Shown: piece after piece, positions 368 to 19,512 of the stretch | Layout of the letters: each line of letters opens with the position of its first letter | Position numbering within the stretch: the first letter of the stretch is position 1 | Virus record (IMG/VR): IMGVR_UViG_3300047157_000186 | DNA length: 64,000 nt | Strand: one strand, 5' to 3' | Source of the DNA: a virus | Taxonomy: Duplodnaviria; Caudoviricetes | Translations under genes and position numbers: made by a program | Notes under the pieces: model-generated | What the model was told of the DNA's origin: nothing | Seen by the model: the letters and a program-made list of their open reading frames with translations, nothing else | Database searches by the model: none

Positions 368-883
368 ATGAAAATATTTGTAACATCTAATTTACAGTTA
401 GGTAGACCAGCTGCCATAAAGCAATATAAAAGATCATACACTGATGTAGATCAAATGACTGATGATCTTATATTAAAATGGAATGAAACTGTAAAAGCAG
501 AAGATACTGTGTTTTATCTTGGTAATTTTGCGCATGATCCTAAAACGGCTCAAGATGCATTACAAAGATTAAATGGTAATATTAAATTTATTGAAGGCGA
601 TTATGATAGCTCTATTTCTTTATTACATGATAAGGGCATGTTACCTACTAGATGTTCTATTCTTAGATGTGTAGATAAAATTGAAGGATTTAATGTAGCA
701 GTGTCTTATTGGCCGTTAGGAGCATGGCCTGAAAAAGCAAAAAAAGCTTGGTCCATTATAGGTTATCCAAATAAAAAATATAAATCAGATCCTAAAAAGA
801 GAATCATTAATGTCTCTACTGATTTATGGGCAAATAGACCACAAGAGCTAGAAAAGCTACTTGGCATCTTCTCAGATTTTTAA
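368..883 (+). CDS. calcineurin-like metallophosphoesterase homolog, metal ligands substituted
   Basis: Matches the scaffold (TSD.H.GH...M...LI..WN..V...D.V..LGDF...LNG...I.GNHD) but reads SNLQLGR / GNF / GDYD. Confidence 0.75.
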   Translation: MKIFVTSNLQLGRPAAIKQYKRSYTDVDQMTDDLILKWNETVKAEDTVFYLGNFAHDPKTAQDALQRLNGNIKFIEGDYDSSISLLHDKGMLPTRCSILRCVDKIEGFNVAVSYWPLGAWPEKAKKAWSIIGYPNKKYKSDPKKRIINVSTDLWANRPQELEKLLGIFSDF

Positions 884-916
884 TTTACAACTTTTCCGAA
901 AATAAACGCTTAAATA

Positions 917-955
917 TTTTTTTATGTCGTTTATTTGTGGTATATTAGTAGTATA
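917..955 (+). promoter_or_regulatory. class-1 (putative early) phage promoter repeat
   Basis: TTTTTTTATGTC-N-TGTGGTATATTAGTAGTATA; TATATTAG at 941. Confidence 0.7.
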
Positions 956-975
956 ATTAAAACAGAGAGAGTCAT

Positions 976-1332
976 ATGCAAATAAAAATTAACAAACAAC
1001 AAGAAGAAGTTTTAAAGTCAGCCTTAGAAGATTACATTCAAAATCTTGTAGGTAAAGGTCGCAAATACAATAATGCTGTTGAAATCATAAACACCATTAA
1101 CAATGCGGGACTAGTTAAGTTAGAACGTACACCAAGAGTCTTTATTAAAAAACAATACATGTTCACCTTTGAAGAAGGAGGTTGGAATACTGTTTGGGCT
1201 AAGACATTGCCAGGTGCAAAAAGACAAGCTATCAAAGAATATAAGGATTTGGAAAATCTAACAGTACGTTTAGATTCAGTACACTTAGCAACTAAAAAAG
1301 GATTAGAATCAGCAATGAGTTTATTTTACTAA
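976..1332 (+). CDS. hypothetical protein
   Basis: 118 aa ORF directly after a class-1 promoter. Confidence 0.7.
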   Translation: MQIKINKQQEEVLKSALEDYIQNLVGKGRKYNNAVEIINTINNAGLVKLERTPRVFIKKQYMFTFEEGGWNTVWAKTLPGAKRQAIKEYKDLENLTVRLDSVHLATKKGLESAMSLFY

Positions 1333-1365
1333 TTGTTCGTAACTTTTGAAAATAAATCTAAAAAA

Positions 1366-1405
1366 GCTTTCCCGTTTAAATAAAAAGTGTTATATTAGCC
1401 CTATA
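1366..1405 (+). promoter_or_regulatory. class-1 promoter repeat (variant)
   Basis: TATATTAG at 1391, preceded by the shared TTGTTCGTAACTTTT..AAAATAAA block. Confidence 0.6.
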
Positions 1406-1430
1406 ATTAAAAACTAAAAAAAATAATAAT

Positions 1431-2036
1431 ATGCCAAAACAACTCAGTTACCGCGAACTATCAGAAAATTTTATCAAGTCAAAATCAGAAAAAGATTACA
1501 ATGCGTTATATCAACGTGTAAAACCAGGACTTAGAAATTATATTTCAAATGTAGTCAAAGATGTGAATGCCACAGAAGATGTTCTAACAAACACACTAAC
1601 TAAAATGTGGACTAAGATTGATCAATATAATCCATCATATCAAATCACAACGTGGTTATACAGAATTGCATTCAACGAATGTTTAGGTTGGATACGCCAA
1701 CGTAATTCTAAATATAGTATTGAAACTATGAAAGAATACGGTATTGAAATTTCTGATCAATATGCTCACACATCAGCTCGTGATTTATTGATTGAGAACG
1801 AAACAAAAACAGAATCAGATTGGTATGAAGAAGATGATTATTTACAAGCACGTTATGAACTAGCTCTTGCAAATATAGAGTCACTAAAACCAATGTATAA
1901 AGAGATTATTGAAGATCGTCTTCTTAATAATATGAAATATGAAGATATTGCTGCTAAGCATAATCTACCACTTCAAACTATTAAAAACAGAATTCGTAGA
2001 GGTAAATCTATTATTGCAGAAAGTATGGATTATTAA
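1431..2036 (+). CDS. ECF-type sigma-70 family RNA polymerase sigma factor
   Basis: Region 2 (EDVLTNTLTKMW...ITTWLYRIAFNECL) and region 4 HTH (MKYEDIAAKHNLPLQTIKNRIRRGK). Confidence 0.9.
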   Translation: MPKQLSYRELSENFIKSKSEKDYNALYQRVKPGLRNYISNVVKDVNATEDVLTNTLTKMWTKIDQYNPSYQITTWLYRIAFNECLGWIRQRNSKYSIETMKEYGIEISDQYAHTSARDLLIENETKTESDWYEEDDYLQARYELALANIESLKPMYKEIIEDRLLNNMKYEDIAAKHNLPLQTIKNRIRRGKSIIAESMDY

Positions 2037-2040
2037 TATC

Positions 2041-2199
2041 ATGAAGAAGTATAAATCAATAGTAGATCACATATGGAATTGTGGGTGTGGTTCAATGAAT
2101 TCACCTTACAGAACTGTATGCGGATTTTGTGGAGCTGAAAATAAAAATTCAGATAATCAAGAAATAGAAAAAACAATAAAAAATTCACAAATACCATAA
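2041..2199 (+). CDS. small zinc-ribbon protein (RanBP2-like motif)
   Basis: WNCGCGSMNSPYRTVCGFCG fits W-x-C-x-C-x3-N-x6-C-x2-C. Confidence 0.6.
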   Translation: MKKYKSIVDHIWNCGCGSMNSPYRTVCGFCGAENKNSDNQEIEKTIKNSQIP

Positions 2200-2283
2200 A
2201 CAAAATAAAACACATTGGTATAATATAAGTGAACAACAAAAAAAAAGGTTCTTTGATTTATTGGTAGAGAAAATACGTTAGAT

Positions 2284-2365
2284 GCTCGGGTGATGAAATC
2301 GGTAAACATGTTCGACTTAAAATCGAATGGCCACAGCCTTGCGGGTTCGAGTCCCGCCCCGAGCA
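2284..2365 (+). tRNA. tRNA-Leu(TAA)
   Basis: GCTCGGG/CCCGAGC acceptor, TTCGA-CTTAAAA-TCGAA anticodon arm, long variable arm, GGTTCGAGTCCC T-arm; no encoded CCA. Confidence 0.93.
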
Positions 2366-2425
2366 CCCAAATATTTTTGGTAGACGTGTCTGTTAATTTT
2401 CTTAAGTACCATAGATATATAATCT

Positions 2426-2860
2426 ATGAAAGATAAAGTAACAAAAGATGAATTAGTAGAAGCTATTAATTCTTCAATAACAATGGCACAAGCAGCAGAC
2501 AAAGTTGATTTAGCATTTACAACATTTAAAAGATACGCTAAAAAACATGGTCTATATAATGCTAATCAAGGTGGCAAAGGAACACGTCGACCACTTAAAA
2601 AACTTCAAGATGTTTTTTCAGGTAAAGAACATTTAGTAACAAACCATCTTAAATATCGTTTGATACTAGAAGGCTTTAAGACCGAACAATGTGAGGAATG
2701 TGGTATAACAGAATGGAATGGTAAAAATATTTCTTTTGAACTTGATCATGTAAATGGAAAAAGAATGGACAACTCATTAGAAAATCTAAAAATTCTATGT
2801 CCAAACTGTCATTCACAAACACCAACATTTAGAGGTAGAAATATTCGTATGGACCAGTAG
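2426..2860 (+). CDS. HNH endonuclease (free-standing, homing-type)
   Basis: CEEC...ELDHVNG...DNSLENLKILCPNCH; lies inside the tRNA cluster. Confidence 0.9.
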   Translation: MKDKVTKDELVEAINSSITMAQAADKVDLAFTTFKRYAKKHGLYNANQGGKGTRRPLKKLQDVFSGKEHLVTNHLKYRLILEGFKTEQCEECGITEWNGKNISFELDHVNGKRMDNSLENLKILCPNCHSQTPTFRGRNIRMDQ

Positions 2861-2927
2861 CTCAGCTGGATAGAGCATCTGCCTTCTAAGCAGACGGTCA
2901 CAGGTTCGAATCCTGTCTGGTTCACCA
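2851..2927 (+). tRNA. tRNA-Arg(TCT)
   Basis: Full cloverleaf GGACCAG/CTGGTTC, anticodon loop CTTCTAA, encoded CCA. Confidence 0.95.
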
Positions 2928-2950
2928 ATATCGACTGTCAGTCAAGCTTT

Positions 2951-3071
2951 AGAGAGGTAGTGAAGCTGTAGTTAAGAAGTAGAGTGTATTAATTGTCGAA
3001 AAAGGGTTTATAGTAGACAGGCGTTACTCATTGCACTTAACCAGAAACCCCGAAAGACCCGAAGCCTCTCT
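2951..3071 (+). ncRNA. structured ncRNA, 6S-like rod with central bubble
   Basis: Nested pairings AGAGAGG/CCTCTCT, GTTAAG/CTTAAC, GAGT/ACTC, TGTC/GACA; no ORF; lies between tRNAs. Confidence 0.55.
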
Positions 3072-3076
3072 TATTT

Positions 3077-3148
3077 GCTCCGTTCGTCTAACGGTTAGGA
3101 CATTAGGTTTTCATCCTAAAAATAGGAGTTCGATTCTCCTACGGAGTA
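3077..3148 (+). tRNA. tRNA-Glu(TTC)
   Basis: GCTCCGT/ACGGAGT acceptor, TTAGG-TTTTCAT-CCTAA arm; no CCA. Confidence 0.93.
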
Positions 3149-3157
3149 CAACAGATT

Positions 3158-3234
3158 GATCTCTTAGCTCAGTTGGCTAGAGCATCTCACTTTTAATGAG
3201 AGGGTCCAGGGTTCGAGTCCCTGAGGGATCACCA
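3158..3234 (+). tRNA. tRNA-Lys(TTT)
   Basis: GATCTCT/AGGGATC acceptor, TCTCA-CTTTTAA-TGAGA arm, encoded CCA. Confidence 0.95.
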
Positions 3235-3237
3235 TAT

Positions 3238-3314
3238 AGTCAAGTATCTCCTCAAGCTTATACCTTGTAGAAAGAGTAATTGGTTACATGAGAGTTCAAA
3301 TCTCTCCTTGACTA
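3238..3314 (+). tRNA. atypical D-armless tRNA-like gene, anticodon TAT (Ile)
   Basis: AGTCAAG/CTTGACT acceptor, GAGAG-TTCAAAT-CTCTC T-arm, CAAG-CTTATAC-CTTG arm; only 8 nt where the D-arm should be. Confidence 0.6.
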
Positions 3315-3376
3315 CCTGTGGAAGAAATTTAATTATATTAATGATATATAGTTTTCAACTAAAAAAATAATAAGTA

Positions 3377-3520
3377 ATGAATTCTGAACAATCAAACAAT
3401 GGAAACACTCAGATAAACCATGAGAGAGCAAGTCTCAACAGTAGAGTTTCTAAATTTATGATGCTTGGTAAATCCAAGAAAGTACAATGGGACGGTAGAA
3501 GAAGAAACCGCACCATTTAA
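3377..3520 (+). CDS. small basic hypothetical protein (47 aa)
   Basis: MNSEQSNN...WDGRRRNRTI, downstream of a GATATATA motif; below the ORF-track cutoff. Confidence 0.45.
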   Translation: MNSEQSNNGNTQINHERASLNSRVSKFMMLGKSKKVQWDGRRRNRTI

Positions 3521-3526
3521 AAGGCC

Positions 3527-3600
3527 GCCTTTGTAGCTCAGCTGGCTAGAGCAGCGCATTTGTAATGCGCAGGTCGTGGGTTCGAGTCCCTCCAAAGGCT
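3527..3600 (+). tRNA. tRNA-Thr(TGT)
   Basis: GCCTTTG/CAAAGGC acceptor, GCGCA-TTTGTAA-TGCGC arm. Confidence 0.95.
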
Positions 3601-3606
3601 CATTAA

Positions 3607-3679
3607 GCGAAAGTAGCTCAGTTGGTAGAGCGAAAGCCTTCCAAGCTTTAGGTCGCCAGTTCGAACCTGGTCTTTCGCT
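3607..3679 (+). tRNA. tRNA-Gly(TCC)
   Basis: GCGAAAG/CTTTCGC acceptor, AAAGC-CTTCCAA-GCTTT arm. Confidence 0.95.
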
Positions 3680-3913
3680 CATAATCGAGAAATAAAGACA
3701 ACTCGGGACAAGCATAAGAGTCCTTAAACAATGCAGGCCACTACCTCGCGAGCCTACAATAACATAAAACGTGGGGTCTGGGATTCTAAAGGACATAACA
3801 AACCTACCCAGTAGTTTGACTAATTTTCATGTGGTAAGACACTAATGCGTTTTATTGAAGAGAAAGAAAAACCGTTAAAATCCAGTCTAACAAGTCTTAG
3901 TTAGGCGCAATAT

Positions 3914-3990
3914 AGTCTGGTAGCTCAGTTGGTTAGAGTGTCGCCCTGTCACGGCGAAGGTCGCGGGTTCGAGTCCCGTCCAGACTGCCA
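3914..3990 (+). tRNA. tRNA-Asp(GTC)
   Basis: AGTCTGG/CCAGACT acceptor, TCGCC-CTGTCAC-GGCGA arm, encoded CCA. Confidence 0.95.
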
Positions 3991-4143
3991 TTTTTACAAT
4001 AGATATATAATCTAAATCATTATCATGACAGATCCTAAAAACGAACCAGACGTAGACTTAGAAAATTCAGAATACGATTCTTTTTCAATACCAAATAAAT
4101 CGGAGTATATTGATGATGATTACGATTATTAAATCAAGGTAAT

Positions 4144-4854
4144 ATGCAAACACGAGTAGTTTATATGAGTGGTAATGAATTTTCAGTAAACATTACTAAA
4201 GAAACCACTAAATCCTTAGAAGATTTCGGTATTGAATATGAATTATTTGATGGTGTAAAAGGAAGAGATGGAATTAAAATTCTAAACAATCTTAATATAG
4301 TTCCATCTGCTTATGTAGAACAAAGAGATTGGACCGATGGTACAATTGGATGCTTAGCAAGTCATGTATTACTTTGGGAAGAATGTTCTCGTCAAGAAGA
4401 ATCATATCTTATAATAGAACAAGATGGTGTTTTAATAAAAGATCCCAGATCACTTCTACCACTAATAGACACTGTTTGTCACTTAGATGCATATTTGCCA
4501 TTTGATAATTCAAAAACAGCTTCAACTGCATTAGAATATTTTCAACTATATAATGAAAGAGTTGCTTTAGAAGAACCCGGTGTAAAGAACTATCCAAAGA
4601 ATAAATTTTATGATGATAATAATATAACAGGTTCATGTTTTAGAGGAACTTATGGATATATTATAACACCAAAGGGTGCAAAAGAAGTTTTAGATTTTAT
4701 TAAAACTAAAGGTGCATTTCCTTCAGATAGATGTCTGTGTTCAAAGGCAACACATTTACAAAGATCTAATAGTACTTATGTTAGATTAAATCCATTTTTT
4801 AATTCACTTGATGTTCAACGAAAGTGGTCGCTTAGAATTCCGGGTGCCATTTAA
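4144..4854 (+). CDS. glycosyltransferase family 25
   Basis: FDGVKG, GCLASH, LIIEQDG and GTYGYIITPKGA motifs. Confidence 0.8.
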   Translation: MQTRVVYMSGNEFSVNITKETTKSLEDFGIEYELFDGVKGRDGIKILNNLNIVPSAYVEQRDWTDGTIGCLASHVLLWEECSRQEESYLIIEQDGVLIKDPRSLLPLIDTVCHLDAYLPFDNSKTASTALEYFQLYNERVALEEPGVKNYPKNKFYDDNNITGSCFRGTYGYIITPKGAKEVLDFIKTKGAFPSDRCLCSKATHLQRSNSTYVRLNPFFNSLDVQRKWSLRIPGAI

Positions 4855-4913
4855 TTAATCATTTAAGATATATAATAAGTACGAAAGTACATTAAAAAAA
4901 TATATCTTATAAT

Positions 4914-5159
4914 ATGAAAAAGATAATTGGATGGGTATCAGGATTACTAAGAGATGAAAAGGGAACTCCGTCATCTAAAAGATTTATTGGAATTTTAGCA
5001 GGTATCACATTATGTGCCGCTTTATTTATTAATCTTTACACAGAATATCCAGTAGAACCTACAATCGTAAACGCAGTCGCAGCAATATGTATTGGTGGAC
5101 TTGGACTAGCTTCAGCTGATAAAATATTCGGCAAGAAAAAAGAAGAAACAAAGGAATAA
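4914..5159 (+). CDS. small two-TM membrane protein, holin-like
   Basis: PSSKR followed by two hydrophobic helices and a basic C-terminus; near a lysin-like gene. Confidence 0.5.
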   Translation: MKKIIGWVSGLLRDEKGTPSSKRFIGILAGITLCAALFINLYTEYPVEPTIVNAVAAICIGGLGLASADKIFGKKKEETKE

Positions 5160-5169
5160 ATTTAATTAA

Positions 5170-5709
5170 ATGGAATTTAGTTTAGACAAAGTTATATCTG
5201 AAGAATATCGGGCTATGATTCAGGAAAATACTAAAGATATGCCATGGGGTGGAGCTGTAATAAGCTCTGTTCCTAAGATATATGAATATGCTTTAGAATA
5301 TGACTGTAAATCAATTTTAGATTATGGTTCAGGAAAATCAGATTTTTTTAACACATTAAACGAATCATATCCTGATCATCAATTTAAGGTAAATCAATAT
5401 GAACCCGCTAGGCCTGAATTCGAAATGGATCCAGAAGCAAGTGACATGACAGTTTGTGTTGATGTAATGGAACACATAGAACCAGAAAAATTAGAAGCAG
5501 TTTTAGATCACATTGCAGATAAAACTAATAAGATCTTATATTTTAAAGTATGTATGTTGCCTTCTCATAATAAATTTAAAAATGGGCAGAATCTACATTT
5601 AATAATAGAAAATAAAGATTTTTGGTTAGATAAATTATCAAAATATTATAACTTAGATAATATTATTGTTGCACCTGGACATGTTTGGGGATTAGCAATA
5701 AAAAAATAA
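5170..5709 (+). CDS. class I SAM-dependent methyltransferase
   Basis: ILDYGSGK, CVDVMEHI; paralogous to 18940..19512. Confidence 0.8.
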   Translation: MEFSLDKVISEEYRAMIQENTKDMPWGGAVISSVPKIYEYALEYDCKSILDYGSGKSDFFNTLNESYPDHQFKVNQYEPARPEFEMDPEASDMTVCVDVMEHIEPEKLEAVLDHIADKTNKILYFKVCMLPSHNKFKNGQNLHLIIENKDFWLDKLSKYYNLDNIIVAPGHVWGLAIKK

Positions 5710-5720
5710 ATATACTTAAT

Positions 5721-6329
5721 ATGAGTTGTTACACTAGAGAACAAATAGAAGAAGTAATGAAAGCCAAAGGCTACAAATACTTCACAGGAGGAGACTACGA
5801 TGTTAATATCATTGGAGTAAGAAACTCAGAAACTAAAAATAAGGTAACAAATAAATTTGATGACTGTTTAACATTATCTTATAAAATAGATGGTGAATGG
5901 CAGTTTCATTGCTTTCCATGTACTACCGATCCTGGAACACATTGGGTAGAGAATGTACTAAATAAAAATGGAGTAGCGATACTTAAACCGGGTCAATATA
6001 GAGGTTCTCATAAATTAAGATTACATGCTGGTAAATATTTAGCTTTAGGGCAACAAAAACCAGTTAAAGTATATCGAGACAATAATAGAGATGACAAATA
6101 TGATTTGTTAGAAGAAAATGTACATGAAGGTATTTATGGAATTAACATTCATAGAGCTACAAGCAGAGCAGGTGGAAAATCTACACAAGTAGATAAATGG
6201 TCTGCAGGATGTCAAGTTATTGCCGATAATGATGATTGGCATGAATTCTTAGATATTTGCCAAATCGCTAGAGAAAAATGGGGTAACTCTTTTACTTATA
6301 CTTTAATTGATTCAAGCGATATTTCTTAA
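5721..6329 (+). CDS. YkuD/L,D-transpeptidase-like peptidoglycan enzyme (putative lysin)
   Basis: TTDPG, GINIHRA-x13-WSAGCQV resembles the His...S-x-G-C catalytic motif. Confidence 0.55.
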   Translation: MSCYTREQIEEVMKAKGYKYFTGGDYDVNIIGVRNSETKNKVTNKFDDCLTLSYKIDGEWQFHCFPCTTDPGTHWVENVLNKNGVAILKPGQYRGSHKLRLHAGKYLALGQQKPVKVYRDNNRDDKYDLLEENVHEGIYGINIHRATSRAGGKSTQVDKWSAGCQVIADNDDWHEFLDICQIAREKWGNSFTYTLIDSSDIS

Positions 6330-6354
6330 ACTTTTTTGAAAATAAATCACCAGG

Positions 6355-6390
6355 ATTTTTTTATATCAATTATTTTTGGTATATTAGTAC
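6355..6390 (+). promoter_or_regulatory. class-1 promoter repeat driving an ncRNA
   Basis: TATATTAG at 6380, immediately before a structured non-coding stretch. Confidence 0.65.
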
Positions 6391-6645
6391 TGTAATTGTG
6401 GCTGAGAGCTTGATCACTCTCTCGAACATTAAGGGCCTGATGGCAACGCGACCACCCTTAATGACAGTTACATCGGACAGACGCCAGGTGAAAAAGTAAA
6501 TTTATGGCAATGTGGGAACTCAGTTCGCTGAGGTCGGTCAATCATAGGGAATACCGTTTAAAACAAAAATAGAGCCTGGTACCTACGCAACTTAAGAACG
6601 TGGGAATTGGTTAATTGAAGGTTCGACTCCTTCTCTGTTCGCAAA
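6391..6645 (+). ncRNA. structured ncRNA: 5' three-way junction plus 3' tRNA-like domain
   Basis: Stems TGTAATTGT/ACAGTTACA, CATTAAGGG/CCCTTAATG, CGGACAGA/TCTGTTCG and T-arm GAAGG-TTCGACT-CCTTC. Confidence 0.7.
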
Positions 6646-6685
6646 ATATAAATCCGGAAACTAATTTGAAAATAATTAGCTCCGG

Positions 6686-6746
6686 ATTTTTTTATGTCAA
6701 ATATTTGTGGTATATTAGTAGTATACTAATGGAGGTTACTACCTCA
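6686..6746 (+). promoter_or_regulatory. class-1 promoter repeat with GAGGT/ACCTC leader hairpin
   Basis: TATATTAG at 6711; leader nearly identical to 14351-14412. Confidence 0.7.
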
Positions 6747-6762
6747 CTAAAACCAATAAAAA

Positions 6763-6987
6763 ATGATCAGATCAAAAAAACCTAAATCAGAAATCGTTAT
6801 CGACTTAACAGGTCCACAAGGAAATGCATTTAATTTAATAGCACTTGCTAAGAATTTTGGAAAACAAATCGGCATGAGTGATTCTTATATTAAAGAGATC
6901 CAAGAAAAAATGATGTCAGGTGATTATGAAAATCTAATTCAGGTATTTGATAATGAATTTGGTTCAGTTGTAATTTTAGAAAGATAA
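6763..6987 (+). CDS. conserved phage hypothetical protein (GPxGNAF motif)
   Basis: IDLTGPQGNAFNLIA motif; follows a promoter. Confidence 0.7.
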   Translation: MIRSKKPKSEIVIDLTGPQGNAFNLIALAKNFGKQIGMSDSYIKEIQEKMMSGDYENLIQVFDNEFGSVVILER

Positions 6988-6988
6988 T

Positions 6989-7102
6989 ATGAAAGCACAA
7001 GATCTTAGACACCATTTAGCCAGATTAGAAATGATGATGGCAGAAGAAAGAGGAATTAACTTAAGCTACGAAGAAGCTTTAAATATAATAGACAAATCAT
7101 AA
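6989..7102 (+). CDS. small hypothetical protein (37 aa)
   Basis: Fills the gap with coupled stop/start. Confidence 0.5.
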   Translation: MKAQDLRHHLARLEMMMAEERGINLSYEEALNIIDKS

Positions 7103-7617
7103 TGAGAAAAGCACCAAACACAGTTGATCATCAAGAATGGAACGAACAGTTCTTACCAATTATGTGGGCTTTTGTTCAGAGTTATCAAGCATCTAAAAAT
7201 GATTTCTTAAAGAAGAAAATCAAAGAAGCTCTTAAGCGTACTATTTATAAGTGGACAGATTTACCACCTAAATATGTTTCTACAGAGATTATAAGACTTT
7301 TTGAAGAGAACGGTATTGAAGAAGATCCATTTAATCTTATATACACTGACCGTAAAATGTTGGGTAGAGATGAGGATGGTAAAACTATTATGTTATGGGA
7401 ACACACAACAACAAATCACGAAACTTATCAAACATTTGTTAAGTGTCAATCTCAAGAAGAATTAAAAGAAGCAATGTCAAACCACACTGGAGTTTGTTGG
7501 ATTACTCGCGAAGAGGACAACATACTTAATAAGAGTGGATTTAGATCAAACAGAGAAGAAGGTTGGGAAGCGGTTTATGAAAAATGCGGTATAAACGTAA
7601 TTGTTCGTAACTTTTAA
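7102..7617 (+). CDS. hypothetical protein, possible His-Me finger-like fold
   Basis: LWEH...CWITREED..L...G...YEKCGI pattern. Confidence 0.4.
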   Translation: MRKAPNTVDHQEWNEQFLPIMWAFVQSYQASKNDFLKKKIKEALKRTIYKWTDLPPKYVSTEIIRLFEENGIEEDPFNLIYTDRKMLGRDEDGKTIMLWEHTTTNHETYQTFVKCQSQEELKEAMSNHTGVCWITREEDNILNKSGFRSNREEGWEAVYEKCGINVIVRNF

Positions 7618-17781: not shown

Positions 17782-17988
17782 ATGGAAGGATATTATATAA
17801 GTGATGAGTATAGAACTAATTCAAAAAGTCTTGTTCCAGGAGGATGGGACGTTGAAGTAGAATATAAAACTCTAGAAAAGAGAATTTATTCCAATATTAA
17901 AAACACAGAAGCATACGCTAATCATATATTAGCATCTGATGAAAATGTAAAATCAGTAACAGTAATCGGAGAAAGTAAAAAAGATTAA
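17782..17988 (+). CDS. hypothetical protein
   Basis: 68 aa ORF. Confidence 0.6.
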   Translation: MEGYYISDEYRTNSKSLVPGGWDVEVEYKTLEKRIYSNIKNTEAYANHILASDENVKSVTVIGESKKD

Positions 17989-18050
17989 AAAAAGTTGAAA
18001 CAAATCAATTTAGCAGAGTATAACAGGTATAAATTTAAAAAACAAATATT

Positions 18051-18227
18051 ATGACAGAATTATTAAATCAAATCCAAGAAGAATTGACTAACATCCAAGA
18101 GGATGCAGCAAAATTCTCAGAAAAAGGAAACAAAGCAGCAGGTACAAGAGTACGTAAGGCTATGCAAGTAATCAAAGGATTAGCACAAGACGTAAGAGTT
18201 GCAGTAAGTGCAGCAAACAAAGCATAG
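18051..18227 (+). CDS. Bacteroidota-type histone H1-like (Hc1-family) protein (58 aa)
   Basis: DAAKFSEKGNKAAGTRVRKAMQVIKGLAQDVR; missed by the ORF track. Confidence 0.8.
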   Translation: MTELLNQIQEELTNIQEDAAKFSEKGNKAAGTRVRKAMQVIKGLAQDVRVAVSAANKA

Positions 18228-18282
18228 TACCAAATATTAATTGGTATATATAAAGTACCAAGGAAACGTTCTTTAAAATATT

Positions 18283-18681
18283 GGAAGGCACATTAGATAT
18301 TGATCATTGATAATGTGAGTGTATTGCCGAAAAAATCCTGACGGAAAGAGGGATTAAGGCACACTAGACATCGGACAAGTTCCGGCTTAGTTGCAAAAGT
18401 GCGTAACTAAGACTCGACAGAGTAGAAGGTGGTAGATCGGGAAAGATATCTAAACTAATCTTTCTAAGAGCATTGCAAGTACCCGAGAGGAAGCCTTGCC
18501 TAAGTGACTGAACATCCTGTCTTATTAGGGGATAAAGTACAATCAAAGCCGTTGTGGCACTACAACGAGATTTAACCATCTTGAGTAGAACTTGAAATAA
18601 TAGTAAAGTTGATTGGTATGCAGTAATCAACACAATAAGTCGATCTTCTAAGGCTAGTATACCTTAGTACACGATCCTTCC
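18283..18681 (+). ncRNA. large (~400 nt) structured ncRNA of unknown family
   Basis: Closed by GGAAGG/CCTTCC; about ten internal hairpins; GC above background; followed by a U-run. Confidence 0.75.
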
Positions 18682-18691
18682 TTTTTTTATT

Positions 18692-18799
<108 letters not shown>

Positions 18800-18806
18800 C
18801 GAAATT

Positions 18807-18832
18807 AGCCTCTCAAACGAGAGGCTTTTTTA
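18807..18832 (+). terminator. intrinsic terminator
   Basis: AGCCTCTC-AAAC-GAGAGGCT followed by T-run. Confidence 0.85.
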
Positions 18833-18939
18833 TGAAATAAAACCATGATAAATATATTATTGGAGCAGGTTCTATATCTAACCACTGTTATGGGCCCCCG
18901 TCCTGTGGTAGAATCTGTTCCATTTTTTAACTTTAAACA

Positions 18940-19512
18940 ATGAGTAAATATCTAAAATATTACAAAGACATTTTTGAAGGTAAACCATTTTTAAGAAATG
19001 GTAAAATGGTCACGTTAAAAGAAAAAACAGTTTTTGATGGGGGCGGAATTCAAAAGATATATGGCGAATTAGAATATGAATTAGATAAAAGAGGTAGCGG
19101 TACTATCTTAGATTTTGGATCTGGAACTGGAGTACATTGGACAAAAAAAGTGCCAATTCCAGGAGTTAAAGAACGTAAAACTGCTAGTGAACACTTTGGT
19201 TCTAGATTAAGAGGATTTTATAGATATGATCCTGCCCACCCAGAATATTGTAAAAAACCAACAGGAACATTCGATATTATAATGTGTACAGAAGTTTTAG
19301 AACATGTGCCATTAGAAGAGTTACCGGAATTATTATCTGAAATGAAATCTTATTTAGCAGATGACGGTGTAGTTATATTCACCATTCCAAAGGGATTATC
19401 AAGTAATGCATTTCCAGATGGTAAAAATCTACATATTACATTAATGGAAACTAAAGAATGGAACAAAATGTTTGATCAATATTTCGATGATCATATATTA
19501 ATTCACCATTAG
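18940..19512 (+). CDS. class I SAM-dependent methyltransferase
   Basis: ILDFGSGTG, CTEVLEHVP; shares the NLHI motif with 5170..5709. Confidence 0.8.
   Translation: MSKYLKYYKDIFEGKPFLRNGKMVTLKEKTVFDGGGIQKIYGELEYELDKRGSGTILDFGSGTGVHWTKKVPIPGVKERKTASEHFGSRLRGFYRYDPAHPEYCKKPTGTFDIIMCTEVLEHVPLEELPELLSEMKSYLADDGVVIFTIPKGLSSNAFPDGKNLHITLMETKEWNKMFDQYFDDHILIHH

What the first reader, a model, noticed from the sequence alone, without database searches (positions are those of the whole stretch)
18283..18681. Unassigned ~400-nt ornate non-coding RNA upstream of tRNA-Ala
Seen: no credible ORF; ends pair (GGAAGG 18283 / CCTTCC 18676); nested hairpins CACATTA/TAATGTG, AGTGT/ACACT enclosing AATCCT/AGGGATT, CGGA/TCCG, CTTAGTT/AACTAAG, GAAAGAT/ATCTTTC, GCAAG/CTTGC, ATCCT/AGGGGAT, CGTTGT/ACAACG, GTTGATT/AATCAAC and CTAAGG/CCTTAG; long-range TCGAC (18414)/GTCGA (18639); possible pseudoknot CGGCTT (18383)/AAGCCG (18546); followed by a U-run. 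ACAAGTTCCGGCTTA resembles RNase P CR-V and GAGGAAGCC weakly resembles CR-I, but in reversed order. Established: large tRNA-associated phage RNAs of unknown function exist (GOLLD, ROOL). Inference: a new large RNA class, or a permuted/degenerate RNase P-like ribozyme.
Basis: partly seen in the sequence, partly recalled or inferred. Interest (0 to 1): 0.8.

Follow-up and report, generated by a model that had tools for sequence, protein, structure and literature searches.

The report
Two-core manA-like phage RNA gene
The flagged stretch is a real, abundant, about 400-base folded RNA of uncultured marine phages that sits among tRNA genes and is built from two copies of the core of the known "manA" RNA, which a 2026 preprint reports to form RNA-only cages in vitro; what it does in infection is unknown.

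Summary
The element at 18283-18681 (+) is a real non-coding RNA. I collected 89 distinct full-length homologues (393-407 nt, 74-100% identical) from marine viral and metagenome contigs. Of 103 predicted base pairs, 99% are standard pairs and 49 show compensatory double changes, against 35-40% and 4-12 when partners are slid. It is not RNase P, ROOL or GOLLD. The only Rfam relation is a below-threshold, full-length match of the 3' half to manA (RF01745; 24.6-32.7 bits, cut-off 55.2). The 5' half holds a second copy of the manA core: the signature module followed by a four-way junction. Three long-range helices clamp the two cores. The RNA always lies on the tRNA strand, 9-47 nt from tRNA-Ala or tRNA-Gly in many loci, and behind an Hc1 histone-like gene in 98 of 100 loci. 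A conserved leader matches the rRNA BoxA consensus. Contigs from four marine metatranscriptome studies cover it at high depth. It is most likely a free-standing RNA that self-assembles as manA RNAs do in vitro, not a riboswitch. This scan found the same kind of "double-core manA" RNA before on other DNA (e1-5362648, e1-5362657).

The parts
18051..18227 (+). Hc1 histone H1-like gene (58 aa) directly upstream; conserved neighbour
   Evidence: Pfam PF07432, E 6e-21. Present upstream on the same strand in 98 of 100 homologous loci with enough flank.
18241..18261 (+). Hairpin TTGGTA..TACCAA between the Hc1 stop and the leader (boxB-like position)
   Evidence: Read from the sequence. Related loci keep a hairpin with compensatory changes (TTAGTA/TACTAA), or an interleaved two-helix element, at this place.
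18268..18278 (+). Conserved leader GTTCTTTAAAA; matches the BoxA consensus GYTCTTTAANA
   Evidence: Kept in all homologues as GTTC(T/A)TT(A/G)A(A/C)A, displaced or altered in a few, while the sequence further upstream differs completely. Consensus from PMC5725501 and E. coli rrn boxA from PMC2724277. As a bare motif it is not rare: 2 matches in the window, 1.4 expected.
18283..18681 (+). The RNA body, 399 nt, closed by P1 (18283-18288 with 18676-18681)
   Evidence: 89 distinct homologues. 103 pairs, 99.0% standard, 49 with compensatory changes.
18289..18317 (+). P2 hairpin with an apical loop that always shows UGAUC (GAUC 18302-18305 invariant; self-complementary)
   Evidence: The outer stem covaries in more than 6 versions while the loop is kept.
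18319..18323 (+). P3 5' strand GUGUA, paired long-range with UACAC 18668-18672
   Evidence: All cells standard pairs; A-U changes to G-C in 6 sequences.
18324..18361 (+). 5' copy of the manA signature module (UUGCCGAAAAAA - hairpin P4a - UUAAGGC)
   Evidence: The best hit of model R1 in the 5' half, aligned to the module positions 38-71. P4a covaries.
18362..18431 (+). 5' four-way junction: P5 (18362-18365 with 18428-18431) closing hairpins P6 18371-18385, P7 18386-18411 and P8 18412-18423
   Evidence: 18 of 32 pairs of the 5' core show changes on both sides; 99.2% paired; 0 of 500 shuffles reach this.
18434..18439 (+). P9 5' strand AGAUCG, paired long-range with CGAUCU 18641-18646; encloses the 3' domain
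   Evidence: 4 of 6 pairs covary.
18440..18465 (+). P10 hairpin (GGAAAGAU/AUCUUUCU); its 3' shoulder is also complementary to the P4a loop
   Evidence: Hairpin kept through GAAAGAU/AUCUUUC, GAAAUAG/CUAUUUC and GGAAAA/UUUUCC versions. The loop complementarity comes and is unresolved.
18470..18499 (+). P11 5' strand (GCAU, with AUGC 18618-18621) and the P12 hairpin with a GAGA/GAAA tetraloop
   Evidence: Never varies. My search pattern lay on this block, so its invariance is partly by construction.
18504..18539 (+). 3' copy of the manA signature module (GUGACUGAACA - hairpin P13a - GAUAAAGU)
   Evidence: Aligned to the Rfam manA consensus GUGaCUGAAUAA..UAAgGu. P13 covaries.
18540..18615 (+). 3' four-way junction: P14 closing hairpins P15 18548-18558, P16 18560-18588 and P17 18590-18609
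   Evidence: 15 of 39 pairs of the 3' domain show changes on both sides; 99.6% paired; 0 of 500 shuffles reach this. Same layout as the manA junction.
18648..18667 (+). P19 hairpin CUAAGG/CCUUAG with a conserved GUAUA loop
   Evidence: 4 of 6 pairs covary.
18682..18724 (+). U-run after P1, then an A/T-rich terminator-like hairpin AAAAGAGTAGA..TCTACTCTTTTTTTT
   Evidence: Read from the sequence. A U-run follows P1 in most homologues. One RNA-library contig ends at 18687.
18726..18800 (+). tRNA-Ala(UGC), 44 nt downstream, followed by an intrinsic terminator at 18807-18835
   Evidence: ARAGORN and Rfam; terminator scan.

Best explanation
This is a free-standing phage gene for a stable, abundant non-coding RNA of about 400 nt. 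It is not a leader or switch for a neighbouring gene.

Shown:
- The RNA folds into two tandem domains. Each is a copy of the manA-type core: a 'G(A)CYGAA-N-AA / hairpin / UAAGG' module followed by a four-way junction.
- Three long-range helices (P1, P3, P9) clamp the two domains.
- It lies in a conserved Hc1 - RNA - tRNA block, on the tRNA strand, often only 9-26 nt from a tRNA.
- It is preceded by a conserved sequence that matches the rRNA BoxA consensus.

Inferred:
- It is transcribed together with Hc1 and the tRNAs.
- The host Nus-factor (rRNA-type) antitermination and folding complex, loaded at BoxA, probably helps transcription.
- Its ends are set by the P1 helix plus U-run and by tRNA processing (RNase P and RNase Z or E).
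- Like manA RNAs in vitro (60-mer, 10-mer and 8-mer closed assemblies held by kissing loops and GNRA contacts), it forms a homo-oligomeric RNA particle. The contacts would be its invariant apical loops: self-complementary GAUC in P2, GUAUA in P19 and the GAGA/GAAA tetraloop in P12.
- With two cores per chain, each molecule would supply twice the interfaces.

What the particle does in infection is not known. My confidence that it is a real, stand-alone, two-core manA-type RNA is about 0.9. My confidence that it works by self-assembly is about 0.4.
For: Family and structure: 129 nhmmer hits, 117 of them full length and 89 distinct. There are 103 pairs, 99.0% standard, 49 with compensatory changes, against 35-40% and 4-12 when partners are slid. 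The tool counts give 0 of 500 shuffles reaching the observed values for both halves.

Relation to manA: Rfam manA matches the 3' half over the full model at 32.7 bits, and it is the only non-tRNA hit in the window (E 1.1e-4). It scores 27.8 bits in L056 and 24.6-32.6 bits in 10 of 11 other members. My 5'-core model R2 puts its best hit on the true manA RNA, in register, in 5 of 5 cyanophage loci, and it hits the window's own 3' core. R1 finds the module in the 5' half.

Stand-alone gene: what follows the RNA is a tRNA, a terminator or a variable ORF.

Leader: conserved in all homologues and equal to GYTCTTTAANA.

Expression: 10 RNA runs from about 10 studies hold 85-100% of its words. RNA-library contigs carrying it have depths of 430-7300, against 5.5 or less for contigs over the downstream gene.

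Assembly: the manA cages are described in bioRxiv 10.64898/2026.07.01.735769. The apical loops are invariant above covarying stems.
Against: The manA relation is below Rfam's cut-off, and the reciprocal model hits are individually not significant (E 0.06-1.4).

The manA pseudoknot and the two 3' hairpins with complementary loops are absent. The interfaces seen in the preprint therefore cannot simply be carried over.

I found no covarying loop-loop partner.

Oligomerisation of manA is shown only in vitro, in an unreviewed preprint. No tool here can predict RNA assemblies.

Contig depths are one figure per contig and a poor measure of expression, and DNA in RNA libraries cannot be excluded.

BoxA identity rests on an 11-nt match that is not rare as a bare motif.

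All homologues are 74-100% identical. The synteny and part of the covariation count may therefore reflect few independent events.
Confidence: 0.5

Rival explanations
1. It is a monomeric protein-binding RNA, a sponge or scaffold. It would bind, for example, the basic Hc1 histone-like protein encoded just upstream, or a host factor. The conserved loops would then be protein contacts rather than RNA-RNA contacts.
For: The Hc1 gene lies directly upstream in 98 of 100 loci. RNA-library contigs join Hc1 and the RNA. The apical loops are invariant.
Against: Only 9 of the 80 Hc1-bearing viral loci fetched carry the RNA, so Hc1 does not need it. The synteny comes from closely related phages. True manA RNAs have no Hc1 neighbour.
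Confidence: 0.2
2. It has a tRNA-related function. The two cloverleaf-like four-way junctions would mimic tRNAs and act as a decoy or substrate for host tRNA-targeting nucleases, or for the phage's own tRNA repair and modification enzymes.
For: The RNA is always embedded among tRNAs on the same strand. The 3' junction has a closing stem of 5-7 pairs, a 3-bp hairpin, a long hairpin and a hairpin of 4-5 pairs that abuts the closing stem, roughly the tRNA layout. The phage encodes a CCA-adding enzyme and a phosphoesterase. Other phages hold YrlA-like RNAs in the same slot.
Against: There is no T-loop or D-loop consensus, and neither tRNA scan places a tRNA inside the RNA. The RNA has no CCA end. 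tRNA adjacency may only reflect shared transcription and processing, as is also noted for ROOL and GOLLD.
Confidence: 0.1
3. It is a cis-regulatory leader or riboswitch, the role under which manA is catalogued. It would control the downstream gene through the P1 plus U-run terminator.
For: manA is filed as cis-regulatory (PMC2864571). P1 followed by a U-run resembles a terminator. In one sub-clade a 110-aa ORF starts 25-45 nt downstream.
Against: In the window and many relatives the next feature is a terminator hairpin or a tRNA only 9-47 nt away. The downstream ORF is absent from the window. The downstream partners vary. In run X3 the contigs over the RNA have about 20-35 times the depth of the contig over Hc1.
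Confidence: 0.05
4. It is a permuted or degenerate RNase P-like ribozyme that processes the phage tRNAs.
Against: No RNase P model matches at E <= 10. The CR-V-like string is the P6 3' strand plus the P7 5' strand, and both covary as local hairpins. The CR-I-like string is the CC-GAGA-GG tetraloop hairpin. No P4-type long-range pairing exists between them.
Confidence: 0.02

Closest known systems
manA RNA motif (Rfam RF01745; Weinberg et al. 2010, PMC2864571; cage structures in Ren et al. 2026, bioRxiv 10.64898/2026.07.01.735769)
   Same: Both occur in marine T4-like phages. Both have the signature module GaCUGAAUAA - hairpin - UAAgGu, followed after 1-2 nt by a four-way junction. The junction has a closing stem, then A, a 3-bp hairpin, a long hairpin and a 5-bp hairpin with no spacer, then GGU. 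Both have GNRA tetraloops and conserved apical loops. The full Rfam model aligns to the 3' half.
   Different: This RNA is 399 nt with two cores in tandem, against about 190 nt with one. It has outer clamps P1, P3 and P9 and extra hairpins P2, P10 and P19. It lacks the GGGAG/CUCCC pseudoknot and the two 3' hairpins with complementary loops. It scores 24.6-32.7 bits against a cut-off of 55.2. It sits among tRNAs behind Hc1 with a BoxA-like leader. Cyanophage manA instead fills tight gaps after gp23, regA and other genes.
ROOL and GOLLD large ornate RNAs (Kretsch et al. 2025, PMC12286853)
   Same: They are large, ornate RNAs of unknown function that form RNA-only multimers (abstract of PMC12286853, seen).
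   Different: There is no sequence or structure match to their Rfam models at E <= 10. This RNA is smaller. Its habitat is different (marine Flavobacteriales-type phages, against rumen, Lactobacillales and lake sources). Its core is of the manA type.
Stable RNAs in the tRNA gene cluster of phage T4 (species 1 and 2, rnaC and rnaD; my own knowledge, not checked here)
   Same: They are non-tRNA stable RNAs of unknown function, encoded inside a T4-type phage tRNA cluster and released by tRNA-type processing.
   Different: The T4 RNAs are far smaller (about 120-140 nt). I did not test them for any likeness to manA.
rRNA operon leader BoxA and the Nus antitermination complex (PMC5725501, PMC2724277)
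   Same: An 11-nt element equal to GYTCTTTAANA lies just upstream of the closing helix of a large structured RNA and is preceded by a hairpin, as in rrn leaders.
   Different: The element is phage-encoded and stands in front of a 400-nt RNA rather than rRNA. In some loci it lies only 8-10 nt after a tRNA. Its function is untested.

Membership tests
manA RNA (RF01745) | Score at or above Rfam's gathering threshold (55.2 bits) | tested here: not met
   32.7 bits in the window, 27.8 bits in L056 and 24.6-32.6 bits in 10 other members.
manA RNA (RF01745) | Signature module GaCUGAAUAA - hairpin - UAAgGu | tested here: met
   Present twice, at 18504-18539 and 18324-18361. The key positions are invariant across 89 sequences.
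manA RNA (RF01745) | Four-way junction directly after the module (closing stem and three hairpins) | tested here: met
   Junctions closed by P14 and by P5; both are supported by covariation.
manA RNA (RF01745) | Pseudoknot GGGaG with CuCCC at the 3' end | tested here: not met
   In the window CCUAAG could pair with CUUAG. In relatives (CCCAAG with CUCUAG) it cannot. The 3' partner instead covaries as hairpin P19.
manA RNA (RF01745) | Two 3' hairpins whose loops are complementary (UaCUguA and acAguA) | tested here: not met
   That part of the model aligns poorly. The window has P11, P9 and P19 there instead.
manA RNA (RF01745) | Position in the 5' UTR of a protein gene (cis-regulatory) | tested here: not met
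   The RNA is followed by a terminator or a tRNA in the window and many relatives.
manA RNA (RF01745) | Closed homo-oligomers (8-, 10- or 60-mers) in vitro | not testable with these tools
   Known only from the preprint. No RNA assembly predictor is available here.
Bacterial RNase P RNA | Match to the RNase P covariance models | tested here: not met
   No RNase P family at E <= 10 on 18150-18850.
Bacterial RNase P RNA | P4 helix formed by long-range pairing of CR-I and CR-V | tested here: not met
   The look-alike strings lie in local hairpins. P6 and P7 covary. The CC-GAGA-GG hairpin is invariant.
ROOL / GOLLD | Match to the Rfam models | tested here: not met
   No match at E <= 10.
Riboswitch / cis-regulatory leader | Constant downstream gene and an expression platform | tested here: not met
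   The downstream features vary: tRNA-Ala, tRNA-Gly, a terminator or a 110-aa ORF.
rrn-type BoxA leader | Sequence GYTCTTTAANA upstream of a structured RNA | tested here: met
   18268-18278 GTTCTTTAAAA. Conserved in all homologues. Consensus from PMC5725501.
rrn-type BoxA leader | Binding of NusB/NusE and an antitermination effect | not testable with these tools
   Needs a binding or transcription assay.

The most novel reading that the evidence does not exclude
The two-core RNA assembles in infected cells into a phage-encoded, protein-free RNA particle or cage. The host's rRNA antitermination machinery produces it alongside the phage tRNAs. The particle has a role in infection, for example concentrating or shielding tRNAs or other cargo. 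This would be the first natural RNA cage with a biological context.
Probability: 0.25. Interest if true: 0.85.

Novelty: new variant of a known kind. Interest (0 to 1): 0.6.

Why it matters
manA has been an orphan "riboswitch candidate" since 2010. A 2026 preprint now shows that it builds RNA-only cages in vitro, but gives no biological setting.

This family supplies a natural, abundant, enlarged version with two cores per chain. It is clearly a gene of its own. It is wired into a tRNA operon, has an rRNA-style leader, and is common in ocean metagenomes and metatranscriptomes.

That makes three questions directly testable:
- Do manA-type RNAs act as free, self-assembling particles rather than switches?
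- How does doubling the core change the assembly geometry?
- Why do large phage RNAs (ROOL, GOLLD and this one) keep turning up beside tRNAs?

The family is absent from Rfam and would be a straightforward addition.

Tried and rejected
- Searching relatives through the downstream methyltransferase found none.
- Loci fetched through the CCA-adding enzyme are rearranged and did not cover the element. The contig of one of them (L012) holds a copy elsewhere.
- The 16-mer AAGTGACTGAACATCC gave only matches unrelated to the family.
- blastn against 50,697 phage records matched only the tRNA, so no cultured phage carries the RNA at that sensitivity.
- R1 (3' domain model) against true manA loci gave 6-10.6 bits at the right place in 4 of 5 loci. 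This is not significant.
- R1 over 73 other Hc1 loci gave one hit, L126:2952-3105 (15.7 bits). It lies inside an ORF and is a false positive.
- A scan for covarying unpaired columns was swamped by clade structure.
- A possible P15-loop to P17-loop contact rests on one column pair and was dropped.
- The P6 loop CAAGU is complementary to ACUUG of P17, but shows no compensating changes (reading).
- The match in a Bacillota MAG contig (L267) is a 28-nt chance match.
- Stretches of the window without RNA-contig cover are not used as evidence.
- Contig ends near 17960-17969 and at 18687 are only weak hints of transcript ends.
- DNA ligase tblastn gave only matches of 35% identity or less to Bacillus and T4-type phages, so no close isolate exists.
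- The 110-aa ORF after the RNA in one sub-clade has no Pfam family and is absent from the window.

Full report
**What is there.** The window comes from a 31% G+C phage with nearly all genes on the + strand. It carries a tRNA cluster, a CCA-adding enzyme, a DNA ligase and tail-fibre genes. No whole genome is held for it.

Positions 18283-18681 lie between a 58-aa Hc1 histone-like gene (18051-18227; Pfam PF07432) and tRNA-Ala(UGC) (18726-18800). The only long frame in the stretch is an 89-aa minus-strand GTG frame. The single sequence folds at -108 kcal/mol, z = -3.1 against shuffles.

**A family, and strong covariation.** Relatives were first found downstream of Hc1 genes in IMG/VR contigs. A metagenome scan with a 20-base degenerate pattern then gave 114 marine contigs. 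nhmmer gave 129 hits, 117 of them full length and 89 distinct. These are 393-407 nt long and 74-100% identical to the window.

On that alignment the RNAalifold structure has 103 pairs:
- 99.0% of cells are standard pairs, against 35-40% when partners are slid by 1-3 columns.
- 49 pairs show compensatory double changes, against 4-12 when slid.

Structure-fitted alignments of the two halves gave similar figures:
- 5' core: 99.2% paired, 18 of 32 pairs with double changes.
- 3' domain: 99.6% paired, 15 of 39 pairs with double changes.
- In both, 0 of 500 shuffles reached the observed values.

Caveats: the homologues were fished with a pattern lying on P11-P12, so the invariance of that block is partly by construction. 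The sequences fall into a few clades, so cells count sequences, not independent events.

**Architecture (RNA position 1 = window 18283).**
- P1 (1-6 with 394-399) and P3 (37-41 with 386-390) close the whole molecule.
- P2 is a hairpin whose stem covaries in many versions while its loop always shows UGAUC.
- The 5' core follows. It is a module UUGCCGAAAAAA - P4a - UUAAGGC, then a four-way junction (P5 closing P6, P7 and P8).
- P9 (152-157 with 359-364; four covarying pairs) encloses P10, P11, P12 (GAGA/GAAA tetraloop) and the 3' core.
- The 3' core is a module GUGACUGAACA - P13a - GAUAAAGU, then a second four-way junction (P14 closing P15, P16 and P17).
- P19 is a hairpin with a conserved GUAUA loop.

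The others are upheld.

**Relation to known families.** Nothing reaches an Rfam gathering score. At relaxed thresholds the only non-tRNA hit in the whole window is manA (RF01745). It matches over the full model on 18484-18672 at 32.7 bits, E 1.1e-4. The same sub-threshold hit recurs in L056 (27.8 bits) and in 10 of 11 other members (24.6-32.6 bits).

A true manA (P-SSM2, 181.6 bits) and four other cyanophage copies fill tight gaps of about 200-390 nt after regA, gp23 and other genes. They have no 5' extension and no tRNA neighbours.

Shared with manA are the signature module and the following junction, down to the junction spacers. Absent here are the manA pseudoknot and its two 3' hairpins.

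The 5' half is a second manA-type core:
- Model R1 (3' domain) puts its best hit in the 5' half exactly on the module.
- Model R2 (5' core) hits the window's 3' core in full register (E 0.057).
- R2 puts its top hit on the true manA RNA, in register, in 5 of 5 cyanophage loci.

Each of these scores is weak on its own (E 0.1-1.2 for the cyanophage hits). By my estimate, five chance top hits at one place would have odds of about 1e-9.

No RNase P, ROOL, GOLLD, OLE or tmRNA model matches at E <= 10. The RNase P-like strings sit in local hairpins. The CR-V-like one lies in the covarying P6 and P7. The CR-I-like one lies in the invariant CC-GAGA-GG hairpin.

**Context.** In every locus the RNA is on the same strand as the nearby tRNAs:
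- tRNA-Ala ends 20-26 nt upstream, or starts 9-47 nt downstream (or 175-730 nt downstream).
- tRNA-Gly starts 12-14 nt downstream in many loci.

Hc1 lies upstream on the same strand in 98 of 100 loci. However, only 9 of the 80 Hc1-bearing viral loci fetched have the RNA. In some of the others the same slot gives sub-threshold YrlA (Y RNA-like) hits.

What follows the RNA varies: a tRNA, an A/T-rich terminator hairpin, or in one sub-clade a 110-aa ORF that the window lacks. This argues against a cis-regulatory role.

Just 5' of P1, all homologues keep GTTC(T/A)TT(A/G)A(A/C)A, while the sequence further upstream is unrelated (a tRNA end, a hairpin or an interleaved two-helix element). In the window this is GTTCTTTAAAA (18268-18278). 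That is a perfect match to the BoxA consensus GYTCTTTAANA (PMC5725501) and close to E. coli rrn boxA, ugcucuuuaacaa (PMC2724277). As a bare motif it is not rare. Its weight comes from its conservation and position.

P1 is followed by a U-run in most members.

Two Flavobacteriales MAG contigs carry full copies with Hc1 and tRNAs. This is a weak hint at the host.

**Expression.** Ten marine metatranscriptome runs from about ten studies hold 85-100% of the element's sampled words. I laid four of them on 17800-19300:
- X1 has a contig at 17969-18777, depth 570, with no differences from the window.
- X2 has a contig at 17960-18687, depth 432.
- X3 has RNA-body contigs at depth 4100-7300, against 203 over Hc1 and 5.5 over the downstream gene.
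- X4 has 743 over the RNA, against 67 upstream and under 5 downstream.

These are contig depths, one figure per contig, and DNA carry-over cannot be excluded. I read them as consistent with an abundant RNA, not as proof of its ends.

**How it probably works.** The placement, the variable downstream partners, the BoxA-type leader and the depth in RNA libraries point to a free RNA product. It would be made with Hc1 and the tRNAs and released by termination at P1 plus the U-run and by tRNA processing.

For its action the best lead is the preprint by Ren et al. (bioRxiv 10.64898/2026.07.01.735769; I read it). It reports that manA RNAs form a 60-mer icosahedral cage, decamers and octamers in vitro, through kissing loops and a GNRA-receptor contact. 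Different variants use non-identical local pairs. The preprint gives no in vivo data and is not peer reviewed.

The present RNA keeps invariant apical loops above covarying stems: self-complementary GAUC (extended to UGAUCA or CUGAUCAG in some clades), GUAUA and a GNRA tetraloop. That is the pattern expected of interface loops. I could not identify partner loops by covariation, and no tool here predicts RNA assemblies.

I therefore give about 0.9 to "real, stand-alone, two-core manA-type RNA" and about 0.4 to self-assembly as its mode of action.

**Earlier findings.** This scan reported "double-core manA-type" RNAs of about 400 nt beside tRNAs in other genomes (e1-5362648 and e1-5362657; they share 10 of 99 short words with this stretch). 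Those notes gave me the two-core idea and the preprint. A third note (e1-5376160) gave the BoxA lead. I tested all three here.

**Verdict.** The finding is a new, uncatalogued variant of a known but functionally unexplained kind of RNA, not a new class and not RNase P.

Noticed in passing
L103:3179-3295, L079:3001-3131, L080:3155-3282, L076:2890-3002, L083:3155-3295: In other Hc1-bearing phage loci that lack this RNA, the stretch between Hc1 (or a tRNA that follows it) and tRNA-Gly gives sub-threshold YrlA (Y RNA-like, RF02553) hits of 30.6-41.6 bits (cut-off 69). The same slot seems to hold different structured RNAs in different phages.
   Followed up: no
window 18241-18261; other clades, e.g. 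GGGTTAGCGAAACCCTAATTCGC: Between the Hc1 stop and the BoxA-like leader there is a conserved structured element. In the window's clade it is a simple hairpin. In other clades it is two interleaved helices (GGGTT/AACCC and GCGAA/TTCGC, an H-type pseudoknot). The second helix appears in compensated versions: ACGAG/CTCGT and GCTAA/TTAGC.
   Followed up: partly
window 18342-18348 with 18459-18465 (RNA 60-66 with 177-183): The P4a loop is complementary over 6-7 bases to the 3' shoulder of P10 in every clade, in different versions: GGAAAGA/UCUUUCY, GGAAGGA/UCUUUCC, CGUGAGA/UUUCACG and GUGAAA/UUUCAC. This pairing overlaps P10 itself. It may be a pseudoknot or an alternative conformer.
   Followed up: partly
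L073:3162-3494: In one sub-clade (16 loci) a conserved 110-aa ORF with no Pfam family starts 25-45 nt after the RNA and precedes tRNA-Ala. The window has no copy.
   Followed up: partly
L261:758-932 (P-HM2 PHM2_011/012), L262:705-911 (S-SSM5 SSSM5_127): In cyanophage records, short 'hypothetical protein' ORFs are annotated on top of true manA RNAs. They are probably not genes.
   Followed up: no
window 17995-18035: Upstream of Hc1 there is a sigma-70-like pair (TTGAAA, 18 nt, TATAAC) and a T4-late-like TATAAATT at 18028-18035. The RNA-library contigs nevertheless begin further upstream, at 17960-17969.
   Followed up: no
L055:3100-3140: An unrelated 106-kb viral contig holds a manA-like module (GACTGAACATCC...TTTTTAAGGT) that does not reach the Rfam cut-off. 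It may be another divergent manA-type RNA.
   Followed up: no
L265, L266: Contigs that look like phage DNA (Hc1, this RNA and tRNAs) are binned into Flavobacteriales and Flavobacteriaceae MAGs in GTDB genomes. This is either a host hint or a binning artefact.
   Followed up: partly
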